From: Escherichia coli
GTDB lineage: Bacteria; Pseudomonadota; Gammaproteobacteria; Enterobacterales; Enterobacteriaceae
Direction: 5' to 3' (one strand)
DNA length: 64,000 bases
Assembly (NCBI RefSeq): GCF_030013205.1
Contig: NZ_CP122648.1
This document shows positions 52,701-61,700 of the stretch, piece by piece; position 1 is the stretch's first letter, and each line of letters begins with the position of its first letter. Position numbers: made by a program.

Positions 52701-55700
52701 TCCATCTTCGACTCCTTCCGGTTTAAATGCGCGTGGAACAGTAATTTGATAATCCGGCTCCAGCCAGCCGCCGGGTATGATTTGCCGCTTTCCCGTACCT
52801 GTTTCTATACCGCTTTGATCAATATACTGAAAATAAGGGTGTCCATTACGCCGGGCAAGGTAAAGCATCACCCGGTTGGTTTTAACCGAATGACTGGCGC
52901 GAAGCAGTGCCTGCAATTTGCGTGGGCTGAGAAGATTCAACCCCTGAAACAGAGCATCGGCATGTTCGAACGAGATCAACGAAGGAACGCCGCAGGCGAT
53001 CTCATACGCGGCCAGTTCCGGAACACTGCCTGCTAACTGGCAGTCGCCAATTTTTAGTTCCGTAGTCAATGACGTTACATCTACGGTAAGCCCCGATGTA
53101 TACAGCGTGATAAATGTTGCAGATTGTTCGAAGGCAGCAAACCATCCCGGCAGCTTAACGTAAGCCGGAAGCGCGAGCCAGACCTGCGGCCTGCCCGGTT
53201 CGGTATAGTGCGCATGGCCCTGTAGCGCAAGGCTGGTTAGCCCCGCCACCCGAACAGGCTTTTCCCACTGTGTTTGCAGGCAGTAAACCGCGTCTACCCA
53301 ATCCGGCTCACGGCCCGTCCGGCAGTACACGCCGTGAGCGATGCGCCTGAGCCAGCCATTTTGAACATAGAGATAAGAAAGCTTACGATCTACGCCGTTG
53401 CGGGTAAGCCATGACTGGAGCAGCACCTGACCGGGTAGCGTATTTTGCATCAACCAGTTTAGATAGTTTGGCAAATGTCGCTCCTGAATAGACATTAGTA
53501 GAAATATTTAAACCAGTGTAGGTTCAGGGATACGCCACAGCAAGAAATAGTTTACTTATTCCTCATTTTGTCTACTTAAAATTGACATTGAGAAAAAAAT
53601 ACAAACTTACCTACATTCAGGCAAAGTGCGACAAATAGACTCGGTCGGTTTAAAGAGAACGTGTAACATAGATGCAAATCGAATAGACATTGTTGCCAGC
53701 CGTTCCAAGGTTGTGGGGCGCTGCATGGCCTGAGACGTGATAAATACAGGGAACACAATGAAATTCACTGAAGATACCCGAGTAAAAATCCCCGTCATCC
53801 TCCACCTGATACGGCTGGGCTACCACTACCTGTCCCTTAAAGAACAACGCTGGGACAAAGAAACCAATATCTTCCCTGACCTCTTCACCGCTGCGATTGG
53901 CAGAATAAATCCCGGACTTGTGCCAGACGACATCGGACGCCTGTTAAAAGACCTCACGCTGCTTCTCGACAACGATGATCTGGGCCGCGCCTTCTTCGAA
54001 AAACTCAGTGACCGTTCCGGTATCAAACTGATCGACTTTGATAACTTCAACAACAACAGTTTCCATGTCGTCACCGAACTGACCTGCGAAAACGGTGATG
54101 AAGAATTCCGCCCGGACATCACGCTGCTGATCAACGGCATGCCGCTAATCTTTATCGAAGTGAAAAAACCCAACAATCGGGAAGGCATCGTCGCAGAACG
54201 CAACCGCATCAACGAACGCTTTAAAAACCCCAAATTCAAACGCTTCGCCAACATCACCCAGTTCATGATCTTCTCCAATAACATGGAGTATGACGACAGC
54301 GACCCGGAGCCGATTCAAGGGGCATTCTACGCCAGCAGCTCTTACAGCAACCCGGTATTCAACTACTTCCGCGAAGAAGAACTCTTCAACCTGACCAACT
54401 TACTGAAACCGCTGTCAGAAGAAACCGAAATCGCCGTCCTGAAAGACAACAACCTGGAAGTGATCCGCACCAACCCGGAATTTCAGACCAACAAAGATCA
54501 CAACCGCCCGACAAACCGCCTCTGCACCGCGCTGTTGAGCCGGGATCGGCTGGCATTTATCCTGCGCTATGCGCTGGTGTATGTAGCCGAACCGGGCGGC
54601 ATCCAAAAACACATCATGCGCTACCCGCAGCTCTTCGCCACCAAAGCGATTGAGCGCAAACTGAACGTTGGCGTGAAAAAAGGCATTATCTGGCACACCC
54701 AGGGCAGTGGGAAAACCGCATTGGCATACTACAACGTGCGCTTCCTGACAGATTACTTCCAGAATCAGCAGGTGATCCCGAAATTCTACTTTATTGTCGA
54801 TCGCCTTGATCTGCTCCAGCAGGCGCAGCGTGAATTCACCGCCCGTGGCTTAATCGTTCACCTTATCGACTCCCGCGAAGCCTTCACCCGCGATATCAAA
54901 GCGACGCAGGCGCTGCACAACCACCACGGCAAAGCGGAAATCACCGTCGTCAACATCCAGAAATTCCGCGATGACCCGGATGTCGTCACCACCAAAGACT
55001 ACGACATCAACATCCAACGCGTGTACTTCCTCGATGAAGTCCACCGCAGCTACAACCCCAAAGGGAGCTTCCTGGCGAATTTAAGCCAGTCGGACACCAA
55101 CGCCATCAAAATTGGCCTGACCGGTACGCCTCTGCTGGGCACAGACTACAACTCCCGCGACCTCTTCGGCGACTACATCCACAAATACTACTACAACGCC
55201 TCCATTGCCGACGGCTACACGCTGCGCCTGATCCGTGAAGAGATCGCCACCAACTACCGGATGATCCTGCAACAGGCGCTAAAAGACGTAGAAGTCAGAA
55301 TGGGCGATGTGGATCGCAAAGACATCTACGCCCATCCCAGTTTCGTCAAACCGATGCTGAACTACATCGTCACCGACTTTGCCAAAAGCCGGGGCGCACT
55401 GAATGATGACACCATCGGCGGCATGGTGATTTGCGACAGCTCAGAACAGGCCAAGCAGATGTTTGAGATATTCAACACTGACTACGCCGAATCGCCCACC
55501 GCTGCCGATGACGTAGCCGAAGAAATGCCGGTATTACAGGCCGCAGAGCCTGCCGCCGTTTACCAGATCCACGCCAAAGAAACGCGGAAAATCAAACGCG
55601 CCGCCCTGATCCTGCACGACGTCGGCAGCAAGCAGGAGCGCAAAGAATGGGTGGATCAATTCAAAGCGGGCGAGATTGACCTGCTGTTCGTCTACAACAT

Positions 55701-58700: not shown

Positions 58701-61700
58701 ATGGCGAAGGTAAAACTCGAGGCAATTTGTCTATCCTGAAAAAATCAATGGCTACAAATCAGGCCTGTTGCAATGTTGAGATTGATTCTGATAAAGCTGA
58801 TTATGAATATGTTTATTATTTTTTAAAGACACAATATGATGAGCTTCGCCAGCTATCTTCCGGTGTTAGAAAAAACCTTAATTCTAACGATATAAAAAAC
58901 TACCCTATTCGTTTGCCATCCTCTCTGGACGAACAACGAAAAATTGCCTGTGTATTAAAAGTATTAGATGACAAACTTGCTCTCAACAACCGCATCAACG
59001 CCGAACTGGAAGCGATGGCGAAAACGCTGTATGACTACTGGTTTGTACAGTTTGATTTCCCTGATGCCGACGGAAAACCGTATAAAACCTCCGGCGGTAA
59101 GATGGAGTATAACGCCACGCTGAAACGGGAAATTCCGGCGGGGTGGAATGACTCCATTCTTGGTAAGTTTATTGAGTTAGATCGTGGCGTTACTTATAGC
59201 AAAGAGGATGTTCGAACTCAGGATGATAAAGATACGATAGGCATTCTTCGCGCTACAAATGTGACGGGAAATAATGTTGATATTGATGATTTAGTCTTCA
59301 TTCCTTCTAGTAGAGTAAACGTTAATCAAATGCTAAATAAATTTGACATATTGATCGTGATGTCAAGTGGTAGTAAGGAGCATGTAGGGAAGAATGGCGT
59401 GTATTATTTCGAAAAAAAACATGCATTTGGCGCATTTTGTTCAAAAATTACACCCGTCAGAAAATACAGATATTTTATAAATACATTCCTGCAATCGAAA
59501 TGGTTTAAGTCTTATATAAACAATCAGTGCTTGGGAACTAATATTAATAACCTGACCAATACGCATATCACTAATTGTGAAATCATATGCCCCACTCCTG
59601 ATGTTGTGGCGTTATTCGAGAATAAAATGATGCCAATTTATAATAAACTGGCATCAAACACTCAAGAGAATAGTCATTTAATCCAACTCCGCGACTGGCT
59701 CCTCCCTCTACTTATGAACGGACAGGTCACGGTCAAATAATCCCCGGCGTGGTTTTGCGAGGCGCATTCCAGATCCGCATTGCGCCGCACTCACCGCAGC
59801 AAAACCGCTTGCCGTTCATAACCGATCGCAGTATCTTTCTCCCGCGCCTGCAAAATCAGGCGTCGGGATTAGCCTCCTGAAAACCGTTACAGGCGACACT
59901 TGACGCACCAGCGTCTTTTTTGTGTCGTGCGTTCGGCTACACCTCAATGGCGGGCCGGGCGGGGGCGTCGCAAGACGCGCCGGTTTCCTGTAACGCCGGT
60001 AAGGCTAACCCCGTCCGGTTCCGCCCCCATGAGATTAGCCTCTCTAGTGGCGGACATAATAAACCGTTACAGGAGACGCCCTATGGCTACAATCCTCATC
60101 TCTGACTGCGATTTACTCGATCTATTGTCCGCTCCCTTCAATGCCACCACGGATTTCACCGTCCTGGCCGACTACTGCGCCCGCTTCGCCGAAACCCTGA
60201 TAGAAACCGACGATCCGGCGCTGCGGCTGGCGCTCTGCGGACGGCTTCACGCGGCTCTTGCGCTATTGCAACCCACGCTGCACGACCCCATCCCGCCGCA
60301 TCTGATTGAAAGCCTGACCGTTGATACCCTTCCCGCCACACCAGAGCACTTTATTTCCGAACCAGATTCCTTGTGCGAATACTGCCTCGCGCTGCTCCAG
60401 CTACTGCTGGAACGTCCAGCAGAGCCAAAAACGGAACAAACCCTGACCGGGCTTCTGTGTGAGCTGGTCTGGAATTTCACGGAAGGACTCAAATCCCCGC
60501 GCTGGCTGCGTACCGCCGACGGCGTAAAATTTATCAGTGAGGTGGCCGCATGATGCAACAGGACTGACATTCCGCCAACATTATTGCGGTGCTGAAAAAG
60601 CGGGGAACGCCTCTGGCGGCACAGAGAAAAACTCATTGCGGAAGCGCTGTAAATATCGCCAGAAATCATCTGGTCCTCAAGGTACTTTGATAGCAAAGGC
60701 AAGCAGGCTGGTTCAGTCCAGTGTTTCTCTTCTTGCATTTTCAGAAATGGGAGGCTGGGAGTCTATCGAAATGGTTCGTCGATATGCTCACCTTGCACCT
60801 AATCACCTTACCGAACACGCACGGCAAATAGACTCAGTCCTGAACCCATCGGTCCCAAATTTGTCCCAGTCAAAAAATAAGGAAGGTACTAATGATGTGT
60901 AACTTATTGATTTAAATGGTGCCGATAATAGGAGTCGAACCTACGACCTTCGCATTACGAATGCGCTGCTCTACCAACTGAGCTATATCGGCCCTGAAAG
61001 GACATGTTCACGAACGTGAATCACGGTGGACAAGGTTAAAACTAACCGGGCGATGCGTCAATGGCCTTGTGAATCAAATGGCTACTTTTGCATCACCCGG
61101 TTTTATTTACGCACGAATGGTGTAATCACCAATGCCGATCCACTTGTAAGTGGTCAGTGCTTCCAGCCCCATTGGGCCACGCGCGTGGAGTTTTTGTGTG
61201 CTTACCGCCACTTCCGCACCCAGACCAAACTGGCCGCCGTCGGTAAAACGCGTAGAGGCGTTAACGTAAACAGCGGACGAATCCACTTCGTTAACAAAAC
61301 GCTGGGCGTTGCGCATATCGCGAGTCAGGATCGCATCGGAGTGTTGCGTGCCGTGTTCACGAATATGGGCGATGGCATCGTCAAGATCGCTGACGATTTT
61401 GACGTTCAAATCTAATGACAGAAACTCATCGTCATACTCTTCCGCTTTAACAGCCACCACCTTCGCGGGGCCTGTCTGCAACTGCGCCAGTGCACCTGCA
61501 TCAGCGTGTAACGTCACGCCACTTTCCGCCATTTGTTTGCTTAATGCGGGCAGGAAACTATCGGCGATGTTTTTATTCACCAGCAACGTTTCAACCGTAT
61601 TACATGTGCTCGGTCGCTGAGTTTTCGCGTTGACGATCACTTTTAATGCTTCAGCGATCTCCGCGCTTTCATCAACGTAAATATGGCATACGCCTATACC

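What the first reader, a model, noticed from the sequence alone, without database searches (positions are those of the whole stretch)
53758..59740. Complete type I restriction-modification system outside the usual hsd locus
hsdR (helicase motifs I and II), hsdM (SAM-binding and NPPF motifs) and hsdS (two target-recognition domains) are all intact and contiguous, with hsdM overlapping hsdR and hsdS following 5 nt later. From memory, E. coli hsd genes usually sit in the immigration-control region far from thrW, so this looks like an additional, horizontally acquired system. Its specificity cannot be read from sequence.
Basis: partly seen in the sequence, partly recalled or inferred. Interest (0 to 1): 0.5.

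Follow-up and report, generated by a model that had tools for sequence, protein, structure and literature searches.

The report
Known thrW-island type I restriction system
This is an ordinary three-gene type I restriction-modification system, a variant of the EcoMIII system already characterised at the same chromosomal spot in pandemic E. coli ST131, with one DNA-recognition domain swapped and a one-base insertion that removes the usual start codon of its specificity gene.

Summary

They are not new. The same operon sits in GI-thrW of E. coli ST131 strain EC958 as EcoMIII. Knock-out plus SMRT sequencing showed that EcoMIII methylates RTAC-N4-GTG. The window's HsdR is 99% identical and its HsdM 97% identical. 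HsdS is identical from the central conserved region to the C-terminus, including TRD2. Its TRD1 is unrelated to EcoMIII's. Half of the recognition site and the probable N4 spacer can therefore be inferred.

The system occurs in 596 of 5426 complete E. coli genomes. This TRD1 occurs in 18, of which 17 are from pigs.

- **Not shown to be "additional".** In the near-identical strain ETEC4070, the classical hsd locus next to yjiA holds no hsd genes.
- **The 5-nt gap before hsdS is a lesion.** An extra A (AAAA where relatives have AAA) puts the normal ATG start out of frame. Only a TTG with no ribosome-binding site remains, so activity is uncertain.

The system fits none of families IA, IB, IC or ID by sequence.

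Interest is low: a new allele of a known system.

The parts
53758..56856 (+). hsdR, restriction/translocase subunit, 1032 aa. Contains the PD-(D/E)xK-type motif D120/E134/K136 (54115-54165), helicase motif I GSGKT (54703-54717) and motif II DEVH (55033-55044).
   Evidence: ORF list. Pfam HSDR_N, SWI2_SNF2, ResIII and T1R_D3-like. TIGR00348 hsdR, E 1.4e-76. 99% identical to R.EcoMIII of EC958 with no gaps. PGAP uses the same coordinates.
56850..58487 (+). hsdM, N6-adenine methyltransferase subunit, 545 aa, GTG start overlapping the hsdR stop by 7 nt. Motif I DPSAGSG is at 57549-57569 and motif IV NPPF at 57783-57794.
   Evidence: Pfam N6_Mtase, E 1.6e-60. PADLOC MTase_I PDLC03033, 1011 bits, full length. 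97% identical to M.EcoMIII. Overlap read.
57661..57661 (+). Single-base difference from all close relatives examined (window A, others G). It changes HsdM Arg271 to His, two residues before the invariant Asn273.
   Evidence: The H271 protein is on record as P0001 (2 contigs) against R271 as P0002 (249 contigs). In 29 diverse homologues the position is R or K in 24, and Q, G or L in the rest.
58477..58500 (+). hsdM/hsdS junction. The native hsdS ATG (58477) now opens only a 7-codon ORF (MIVKTFD*), because the A-run at 58486-58489 is AAAA instead of AAA. The hsdM stop TAA (58485-58487) is unchanged.
   Evidence: Alignment and differences against K_EC180, EC556, ETEC1748, N3 and ERR4899634. The relatives annotate a 420-aa HsdS that overlaps hsdM by 11 nt. 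Only 1 of 18 complete genomes carries AAAA.
58493..59740 (+). hsdS as an open frame from TTG, 415 aa. It comprises TRD1, a central conserved region, TRD2 and a distal conserved region.
   Evidence: Pfam Methylase_S twice. PADLOC Specificity_I. PGAP CDS WP_282868291.1.
58466..58961 (+). Variable block 1: the last 22 nt of hsdM plus TRD1 of hsdS. It is unrelated to EcoMIII, rare, and its half-site is unknown.
   Evidence: blastn break points against EC958. The protein alignment starts only at residue ~87-160. The TRD1 DNA is in 18 of 5426 genomes. The closest TRD relatives are 65-87% identical and carry no assigned specificity.
59147..59684 (+). Variable block 2: TRD2. It is identical in protein to TRD2 of S.EcoMIII, and it differs in strain N3.
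   Evidence: residues 203-415 identical. (break points against N3). The query window 59100-59740, which contains this block, matches over at least 80% of its length in 538 of 5426 genomes. It resembles EcoKI TRD1 at 30% identity.
51785..53474 (-). abiEii (51785-52705) and abiEi (52692-53474). This toxin-antitoxin / abortive-infection pair is divergent from hsdR and travels with it at thrW.
   Evidence: PADLOC AbiEii 3.9e-116 and AbiEi 8.5e-79. PGAP names. The same pair lies beside the RM operon in EC958, strain 4/1-1, RM9088 and N3. The block shared with EC958 starts at 51784.
59844..60031 (+). Two small-RNA genes of prophage or satellite type: isrK-like (59844-59921) and C4 antisense RNA (59943-60031).
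   Evidence: Rfam matches above the gathering scores: 68 bits (threshold 50) and 71.8 bits (threshold 45).
59947..60902 (+). Remnant of the integrative element: ash-family ORF (59947-60105), hypothetical ORF (60083-60553), HTH pseudogene fragment (60608-60703) and the C-terminal fragment of a tyrosine integrase (60699-60902).
   Evidence: PGAP annotation of the identical sequence. PHROGs transcriptional regulator and integrase hits. Sequence read.
60917..60992 (-). thrW, tRNA-Thr(CGT), the integration site. proA and proB follow to the right.
   Evidence: ARAGORN. Rfam tRNA. Annotation. No second copy of its 3' end exists in the window.

Best explanation
The locus is an allele of the EcoMIII type I restriction-modification system. 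It is carried, together with an AbiE abortive-infection pair, in the decayed integrative island at thrW (GI-thrW).

By homology it should work as a classical type I enzyme:
- An M2S1 complex reads a bipartite site through the two TRDs of HsdS. It methylates one adenine in each half-site using AdoMet.
- When both strands are unmethylated, two HsdR subunits join the complex. They translocate DNA with ATP and cut at a distance.

The specificity subunit is a recombinant. Its central and distal conserved regions and TRD2 are those of S.EcoMIII (site RTAC-N4-GTG). TRD1 was replaced by an unrelated domain through an exchange that spans the hsdM 3' end to the hsdS central region. The predicted site is therefore [unknown TRD1 half-site]-N4-GTG or [unknown TRD1 half-site]-N4-GTAY. 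Which of the two depends on which EcoMIII half-site belongs to TRD2.

In this particular sequence a 1-nt insertion removes the normal, translationally coupled ATG start of hsdS. HsdS can then be made only by re-initiation at a TTG 5 nt after the hsdM stop. The system may be weakened or silent.

What is shown: gene content, identity to EcoMIII, TRD mosaicism, location, distribution, and the start-codon lesion. What is inferred: enzymatic activity, the site, and the effects of the lesion and of HsdM R271H.
For: **Domain and motif content.**

**Identity to the EC958 GI-thrW proteins.** HsdR is 99%, HsdM 97%, and HsdS residues 203-415 are 100% identical.

**EcoMIII is experimentally characterised.** It is encoded in GI-thrW. 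Its knock-out abolishes m6A at RTAC-N4-GTG, and more than 99% of sites are methylated in the wild type (PMC4659465). The same motif was found in ATCC 25922 (PMC12679398).

**Synteny.** The order thrW, integrase fragment, hypothetical ORF, ash, hsdS-M-R, abiEi-abiEii is the same in EC958, 4/1-1, RM9088 and N3.

**TRD swapping.** Break points fall at 58466/58961 against EC958 and at 59147/59684 against N3.

**Distribution.** The system is in 596 of 5426 genomes, all on chromosomes. TRD1 is in 18 and TRD2 in 538.

**Start lesion.**
Against: - No methylome or restriction assay exists for this allele.
- Restriction, as opposed to methylation, was not tested even for EcoMIII in the paper read.
- The TTG start has no recognisable Shine-Dalgarno sequence (read). 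HsdS, and so the whole enzyme, may not be made.
- HsdM carries His at position 271, where 24 of 29 diverse homologues have Arg or Lys.
- The spacer length and the TRD2 half-site are extrapolated from one characterised relative.
- The assignment of half-sites to TRDs could not be resolved.
Confidence: 0.9

Rival explanations
1. The system is genetically present but functionally off (r- m-) in this strain. The 1-nt insertion abolishes productive hsdS translation. Without HsdS, neither methyltransferase nor endonuclease can form, and this loss is not lethal.
For: - The native ATG is out of frame and opens a 7-codon ORF. The only in-frame start is a TTG with no SD-like sequence upstream. The next in-frame ATG is at codon ~69, inside TRD1.
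- All other alleles examined keep an ATG that overlaps hsdM by 8-11 nt.
- That junction has no indel in 520 genomes with the EcoMIII allele or in 17 of 18 genomes with this allele, so it appears to be constrained.
- Other strains have the operon broken by IS elements: IS1203 in W13-16 and IS1 in two O25:H4-type genomes. Loss of the system is therefore tolerated.
Against: - Termination-reinitiation at a TTG 5 nt after a stop codon is a known way of coupling translation (general knowledge, not tested here).
- PGAP accepts the 415-aa CDS.
- The rest of hsdS has no lesion.
- The extra A could be an assembly error. It appears in ETEC4070 but not in its near-twin ETEC4071.
Confidence: 0.35
2. The extra A at 58486-58489 is a sequencing or assembly artefact. 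The real gene is the 420-aa hsdS of the sister strains, with the normal overlapping ATG.
For: - Sixteen clone-mates and N3 have AAA.
- The short-read Logan assembly ERR4899634, which shares the rare H271 variant, has AAA.
- All four combinations of R/H271 with AAA/AAAA exist. These are ETEC4070 (R + AAAA), the window (H + AAAA), ERR4899634 (H + AAA) and the rest (R + AAA). This needs either recurrent change or error.
Against: - AAAA is present in at least two separate deposits, ETEC4070 and GCA_030346235.1, besides the window.
- A run of 3-4 A is short for a homopolymer error.
- Other genomes of the same CP122xxx accession series do not show it.
Confidence: 0.25
3. One reading: an extra type I system that supplements a resident hsd system in the immigration-control region.
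For: This is true for ST131 EC958. That strain carries EcoMII, whose R subunit is reported to be 92% identical to StySBLI of family ID (PMC4659465). EcoMII lies between symE and yjiA, and EcoMIII lies at thrW.
Against: ETEC4070 differs from the window at 1 of 22,301 compared bases. Its yjiA-mdtM interval contains only BrnT/BrnA, a defective IS1 and a gene fragment.
Confidence: 0.15

Closest known systems
EcoMIII (EC958_0424-0426), the GI-thrW type I R-M system of E. coli ST131 EC958; reported to be in the REBASE Gold Standard set; site RTAC-N4-GTG
   Same: - Same locus and neighbours (thrW, integrase fragment, ash, AbiEi/AbiEii).
- Same gene order, hsdR-hsdM-hsdS.
- HsdR 99% and HsdM 97% identical.
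- HsdS central region, TRD2 and C-terminus identical.
   Different: - TRD1 and the last residues of HsdM are replaced, so one half-site must differ.
- The hsdS start is displaced by a 1-nt insertion.
- HsdM carries R271H.
- In EC958 the island also keeps integrase pseudogenes and a second thrW-like repeat at its far end, which the window lacks.
EcoR124I/II (type IC), the closest relative with solved structures (7BST, 2W00)
   Same: - Three-subunit type I architecture.
- HsdM aligns over nearly its full length, residues 29-533 against 28-512.
- HsdR is of similar size, 1032 against 1038 aa, and the helicase region matches.
- The window's TRD1 belongs to the same TRD class as EcoR124 TRD2.
   Different: - Only distant similarity: HsdM E 5e-33, HsdR E 4e-26.
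- Gene order is R-M-S with overlapping genes. In type IC it is hsdM-hsdS-hsdR with a separate hsdR promoter (established knowledge).
- Chromosomal island rather than plasmid.
EcoKI (type IA), the classical E. coli hsd system in the immigration-control region
   Same: - Same enzyme class and same R-M-S gene order.
- The window's TRD2 aligns with EcoKI TRD1, which reads AAC, at 30% identity.
   Different: - HsdR is 25% identical over 234 aa only, and HsdM 24% over 258 aa.
- Different locus.
- HsdR is 1170 aa in EcoKI against 1032 aa here.
Defence cargo of P4-like satellites and other tRNA-integrated islands (Rousset et al. 2022, PMC9122126)
   Same: - A defence pair (RM + AbiE) sits beside integrase, ash and C4-type RNA remnants at a tRNA gene.
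- The same R-M module lies directly beside an intact integrase at tRNA-Leu in 17MR471, next to TIR-domain and WYL-domain genes.
   Different: - No psu, sid, delta, alpha or cos was found here, so P4-like membership cannot be shown.
- The integrase fragment converges on thrW, unlike the tRNA-to-int arrangement at the tRNA-Leu gene in 17MR471.

Membership tests
Type I restriction-modification systems (general) | Three separate subunit genes: hsdR, hsdM and hsdS | tested here: met
Type I restriction-modification systems (general) | HsdR with an N-terminal PD-(D/E)xK nuclease and SF2 helicase motifs | tested here: met
   Pfam HSDR_N, SWI2_SNF2/ResIII and T1R_D3-like. Motifs D120/E134/K136, GSGKT, DEVH, TGTP and QxxxRxxR were read from the translation.
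Type I restriction-modification systems (general) | HsdM of the N6-adenine methyltransferase class with an AdoMet motif and NPPF | tested here: met
   N6_Mtase, E 1.6e-60. DPSAGSG and NPPF are present. D234, G238, N312, P313 and P314 are invariant in 30 aligned homologues.
Type I restriction-modification systems (general) | HsdS with two target-recognition domains separated by conserved regions | tested here: met
   Two Methylase_S hits. The two TRD blocks are exchanged independently between alleles.
Type I restriction-modification systems (general) | Bipartite m6A methylation, and ATP-dependent cleavage away from the site | not testable with these tools
   Methylation was shown only for the relative EcoMIII (PMC4659465). 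Cleavage was not shown for either.
EcoMIII / GI-thrW system | Near-identical HsdR and HsdM | tested here: met
   99% and 97% identity, without gaps.
EcoMIII / GI-thrW system | Location beside thrW with the AbiE pair | tested here: met
EcoMIII / GI-thrW system | Same HsdS and hence the same site, RTAC-N4-GTG | tested here: not met
   TRD2 and the conserved regions are identical, but TRD1 is unrelated. It is an allele with a different specificity, not EcoMIII itself.
Type IA (EcoKI/EcoBI) | High sequence identity of HsdM and HsdR to EcoKI; allelic position in the immigration-control region | tested here: not met
   Only 24-25% identity over partial alignments. The locus is thrW.
Type IB (EcoAI/EcoEI) | HsdR matches the EcoAI/FtnUII equivalog model | tested here: not met
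   NF046051 scores 30.9 bits against a cutoff of 550.
Type IC (EcoR124I, EcoDXXI, EcoprrI) | High identity to EcoR124 subunits; gene order hsdM-hsdS-hsdR | tested here: not met
   Only distant matches: HsdM E 5e-33, HsdR E 4e-26. The order here is R-M-S.
Type ID (StySBLI, EcoR9I; EcoMII of EC958) | High identity to StySBLI-type subunits | tested here: not met
   HsdM is 24% identical to M.EcoMII. The R subunit of EcoMII is reported as 92% identical to StySBLI (PMC4659465). The EcoMII gene order is M-S-R.
Type IE (KpnBI) | Similarity to KpnBI subunits | not tested
   No KpnBI sequence was available in the tools. From memory, KpnBI hsdM is about 2.6 kb, much longer than the 1.64 kb here. This is a lead only.
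P4-like satellite | psu, sid, delta, alpha and cos together with an integrase | tested here: not met
   Only ash, a C4-type RNA, an isrK-type RNA and an integrase fragment remain. None of the hallmark genes is annotated between 51.7 and 61 kb.

The most novel reading that the evidence does not exclude
The AAA/AAAA tract at the hsdM stop / hsdS start acts as a slippage switch. It would turn HsdS translation, and so the whole restriction barrier, off and on within a clone. This would explain why all four combinations of the tract state with the HsdM R271H variant are seen among near-identical porcine strains.
Probability: 0.03. Interest if true: 0.4.

Novelty: new member of a known kind. Interest (0 to 1): 0.12.

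Why it matters
The practical value is modest.

- **Barrier to DNA entry.** This allele marks a clone of porcine enterotoxigenic / oedema-disease E. coli: 17 of the 18 complete genomes that carry its TRD1 are from pigs. It probably sets a lineage-specific barrier to incoming DNA and phages. That matters to anyone trying to transform these strains, apply phage therapy, or interpret their methylomes.
- **Triangulating specificity.** The locus shows how type I specificities can be worked out. EcoMIII, this allele and the N3 allele share TRDs pairwise, so two more methylomes would assign all the half-sites.
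- **No new biology.** The family, its location and its mode of action are already described.

Tried and rejected
1. **Assigning the TRD1 half-site by homology.** The TRD1-only protein search returned 68 relatives, 51-99% identical; apart from two partial E. coli fragments (98-99%) they were 51-87% identical. They included Vibrio anguillarum, Dolichospermum and metagenome sequences, and none had a named specificity. PDB matches (M. jannaschii 1YF2, EcoR124 TRD2) are too distant.

2. **Deciding which EcoMIII half-site belongs to TRD2.**
   - TRD2 resembles EcoKI TRD1 (which reads AAC) at only 30% identity.
   - EcoMIII TRD1 has no informative solved relative.
   - The literature search for the motif found only EC958 and ATCC 25922.
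   - The question is unresolved.

3. **Promoter and terminator scan.** Counts are at chance level: 9 promoter-like sites against 9.5 expected, and 16 terminator-like sites against 12.7. No operon-control claim was made. A hairpin plus T-run at 59902-59915, downstream of hsdS, was only noted.

4. **Second att copy.** No second copy of the thrW 3' end was found in the window, allowing up to 3 mismatches. The distal island boundary is therefore decayed. The block shared with EC958 ends at 51784.

5. **Phase variation at the junction.** Rejected as the main reading. The equivalent junction is invariant in 520 genomes, and AAAA occurs in 1 of 18.

6. **R271H as an inactivating change.** Not supported. 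The position is mostly R or K but is not invariant.

7. **Dcm-site deamination as the cause of the G-to-A change at 57661.** The sequence context is not CCWGG.

8. **Membership of families IA-ID.** Tested and rejected.

Full report
**1. What is in the sequence**

Three ORFs lie on the + strand:
- hsdR, 53737/53758-56856.
- hsdM, 56850-58487, with a GTG start.
- hsdS, 58493-59740, with a TTG start.

hsdM overlaps hsdR by 7 nt (acGTGGTAG). hsdS begins 5 nt after the hsdM stop.

Family searches leave no doubt about the class:
- TIGR00348 hsdR scores E 1.4e-76 and TIGR00497 hsdM 4.5e-43.
- PADLOC calls REase_I, MTase_I (1011 bits, full length) and Specificity_I.
- Pfam finds HSDR_N, SWI2_SNF2/ResIII and T1R_D3-like in HsdR.
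- Pfam finds N6_Mtase in HsdM and two Methylase_S domains in HsdS.

HsdR has GSGKT and DEVH, plus a D...EVK nuclease motif. HsdM has DPSAGSG and NPPF. tRNA-Thr(CGT), thrW, lies at 60917-60992 on the minus strand, with proA and proB beyond it.

**2. Where the window comes from, and how common the system is**

The 6.1-kb stretch matches 596 of 5426 complete E. coli genomes, always on the chromosome. The best matches are porcine ETEC and O139:H1 strains.

The window is identical to ETEC4070 (NZ_CP122676.1) over 22,301 bases except for one base, at 57661. The annotation there runs in this order: thrW, integrase fragment, HTH fragment, hypothetical ORF, ash, hsdS-M-R, then the divergent abiEi-abiEii pair, then a ykgR fragment and housekeeping genes.

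Other features of the element:
- PADLOC confirms AbiEi and AbiEii.
- Rfam finds an isrK-type RNA (59844-59921) and a C4 antisense RNA (59943-60031) just after hsdS.
- PHROGs confirms that the last ORF fragment is the C-terminus of an integrase.

The system therefore sits in a decayed integrative element at thrW. No second copy of the thrW 3' end remains in the window.

**3. It is already known: EcoMIII of GI-thrW**

A literature search for thrW plus type I restriction led to Forde et al. 2015 (PMC4659465). That paper reports the following:
- In ST131 strain EC958, the island GI-thrW encodes a type I operon, hsdR-hsdM-hsdS (EC958_0426/0425/0424), named EcoMIII.
- Its knock-out abolishes m6A at RTAC-N4-GTG.
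- More than 99% of these sites are methylated in the wild type.

The same motif is reported for ATCC 25922 (PMC12679398). M.EcoMIII is reported to be in the REBASE Gold Standard set.

I fetched the EC958 locus and compared proteins. HsdR is 1018/1032 identical. HsdM is 525/544 identical, with the differences clustered at the C-terminus. HsdS is identical over residues 203-415 and unrelated before residue ~90-150.

At the DNA level the unshared block is 58466-58961. The window therefore carries an EcoMIII allele in which TRD1, together with the last codons of hsdM, has been replaced.

Strain N3 has the window's TRD1 with yet another TRD2. Its unshared block is 59147-59684. Strain RM9088 has a third arrangement.

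TRD1 of the window occurs in 18 complete genomes, of which 17 are porcine. TRD2 occurs in 538.

**4. What can be said about specificity**

The central conserved region sets the spacing of the two TRDs, and both it and TRD2 are identical to S.EcoMIII. The site should therefore keep one EcoMIII half-site and, most likely, the N4 spacer. That gives [TRD1 site]-N4-GTG or [TRD1 site]-N4-GTAY.

I could not decide between the two:
- TRD2 resembles EcoKI TRD1 (which reads AAC) at 30% identity. Both candidate half-sites end in a methylated A followed by C, so this does not discriminate.
- EcoMIII TRD1 has no informative relative.

The TRD1 half-site remains unknown. Its relatives, 65-87% identical in Vibrio, cyanobacteria and metagenomes, carry no assigned specificity. 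The solved relatives are too distant.

**5. Which type I family**

- **IA:** HsdR and HsdM are about 24-25% identical to EcoKI over partial alignments.
- **IB:** the EcoAI equivalog model scores 30.9 bits against a cutoff of 550.
- **IC:** EcoR124 is the closest solved relative, but only distantly (HsdM E 5e-33, HsdR E 4e-26). The gene order also differs.
- **ID:** HsdM is 24% identical to M.EcoMII of EC958, whose R subunit is reported as 92% identical to StySBLI.
- **IE:** not tested, because no sequence was available.

The system therefore lies outside the named families tested here. This is unremarkable. The HsdM family has 282 representative clusters at E below 1e-30 in the 50%-identity library.

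**6.

(a) *"Additional" system.* In K-12 the hsd genes lie between mrr and symE/mcrBC, next to yjiA. In EC958 that position holds EcoMII, so there EcoMIII really is a second system. In ETEC4070, the near-twin of the window, the yjiA-mdtM interval holds only BrnT/BrnA, a defective IS1 and a gene fragment. In this lineage the thrW system is not an addition to a classical hsd locus. Whether other type I systems lie elsewhere in the genome was not examined.

(b) *"Intact" hsdS.* In every other allele examined, hsdS starts at an ATG that overlaps the end of hsdM by 8-11 nt.
- The clone-mates K_EC180, EC556 and ETEC1748, strain N3, and the short-read assembly ERR4899634 read ...TATGATAGTTAAACCTTTG.... 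This gives a 420-aa HsdS that begins MIVKPLIELSKK.
- The window and ETEC4070 have one more A (TTAAAACC). The ATG then opens a 7-codon ORF, and the long frame can start only at TTG 58493.
- Only 1 of 18 complete genomes has this state.
- The corresponding junction of the EcoMIII allele has no indel in 520 genomes. This argues against a phase-variable tract.

The insertion may be real or an assembly error. It also occurs in GCA_030346235.1, whose contig is identical to the window. Its effect on HsdS synthesis is unknown.

**7. The single-base difference in hsdM**

Window base 57661 is A where ETEC4070, K_EC180, EC556, ETEC1748 and EC958 have G. This changes Arg271 to His. The His variant is on record as a rare protein, on 2 contigs against 249 for the Arg form.

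In an alignment of 30 sequences down to 18% identity, the position is R or K in 24 of the 29 homologues. It lies two residues before the invariant Asn273, but Q, G and L also occur there. A functional effect can be neither claimed nor excluded.

**8. Mobility**

The same hsdR-hsdM module, 92% identical at the DNA level from 135 nt upstream of hsdR, lies beside an intact tyrosine integrase at a tRNA-Leu gene in strain 17MR471. TIR-domain and WYL-domain genes sit next to it.

Together with the integrase fragment, ash and the C4-type RNA at thrW, this fits defence cargo of tRNA-integrating elements such as P4-like satellites (PMC9122126). The hallmark satellite genes are absent here, so this stays as context and is not a classification.

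**9. Verdict**

The object is a new specificity allele of a known, experimentally characterised system at a known island. Its mechanism is inferred to be that of a classical type I enzyme. Whether it is active in this strain is uncertain because of the displaced hsdS start. Interest is low.

Noticed in passing
window 58486-58489 (A-run at the hsdM stop / hsdS start): One extra A relative to 17 of 18 complete genomes with this allele. It puts the native overlapping ATG start of hsdS (58477) out of frame and leaves only TTG 58493.
   Followed up: yes
window 57661: The only base that differs from ETEC4070 across window 41700-64000. It changes HsdM Arg271 to His. This rare variant is also present in GCA_030346235.1 and in the run ERR4899634.
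   Followed up: yes
L007 (NZ_CP122676.1 4330187-4336593): The classical immigration-control region of the near-identical strain ETEC4070 is empty of hsdRMS, mrr and mcrBC. The order there is yjiA, BrnA/BrnT, defective IS1, a gene fragment, mdtM.
   Followed up: partly
L015 (GCA_030346235.1 contig JAUAMS010000037.1) against window 41893-60746: This 18,853-bp contig, whose HsdM is labelled 'plasmid' by its source, is exactly window 41893-60746 circularly permuted. It joins the integrase fragment (60746) to the 3' end of yagU (41893) with no obvious repeat. It could be a tandem duplication, an excised circle or an assembly artefact.
   Followed up: partly
window 59844-59921 and 59943-60031: Rfam matches above threshold to the isrK Hfq-binding RNA and the C4 antisense RNA, immediately downstream of hsdS and overlapping the start of the ash ORF. 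They are remnants of a prophage or satellite immunity region.
   Followed up: partly
window 51785-53474, minus strand: An AbiEi/AbiEii (type IV toxin-antitoxin, abortive infection) pair, divergent from hsdR. It is conserved next to the RM operon in EC958, 4/1-1, RM9088 and N3, and forms a two-system defence module at thrW.
   Followed up: partly
L011 (NZ_CP051158.1, strain 17MR471) 140-11457: The same hsdR-hsdM family lies beside an intact tyrosine integrase at a tRNA-Leu gene, flanked by TIR-domain and WYL-domain genes. This indicates that the RM module moves between tRNA-integrated islands.
   Followed up: partly
One search hits H7, H20 and H21 (W13-16; strains 22726 and 18044): In some genomes the thrW RM operon is interrupted by IS elements: IS1203 in O139:H1 strain W13-16, and IS1 in strain 22726 and O25:H4 strain 18044. 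This suggests recurrent inactivation.
   Followed up: no
L005 (EC958) 33257-33507 against window 60709-60961: EC958 carries a second copy, 90% identical, of the integrase C-terminal fragment plus part of thrW at the far end of GI-thrW. This looks like an att-type repeat. The window has no such second copy.
   Followed up: partly
L010 (NZ_CP069682.1, O176:H45 strain MIN9) 6985-9598: A further relative at an unrelated locus. It has a truncated hsdM (missing the N-terminus), an hsdS and no annotated hsdR, among IS remnants and beside sucrose-utilisation genes.
   Followed up: no
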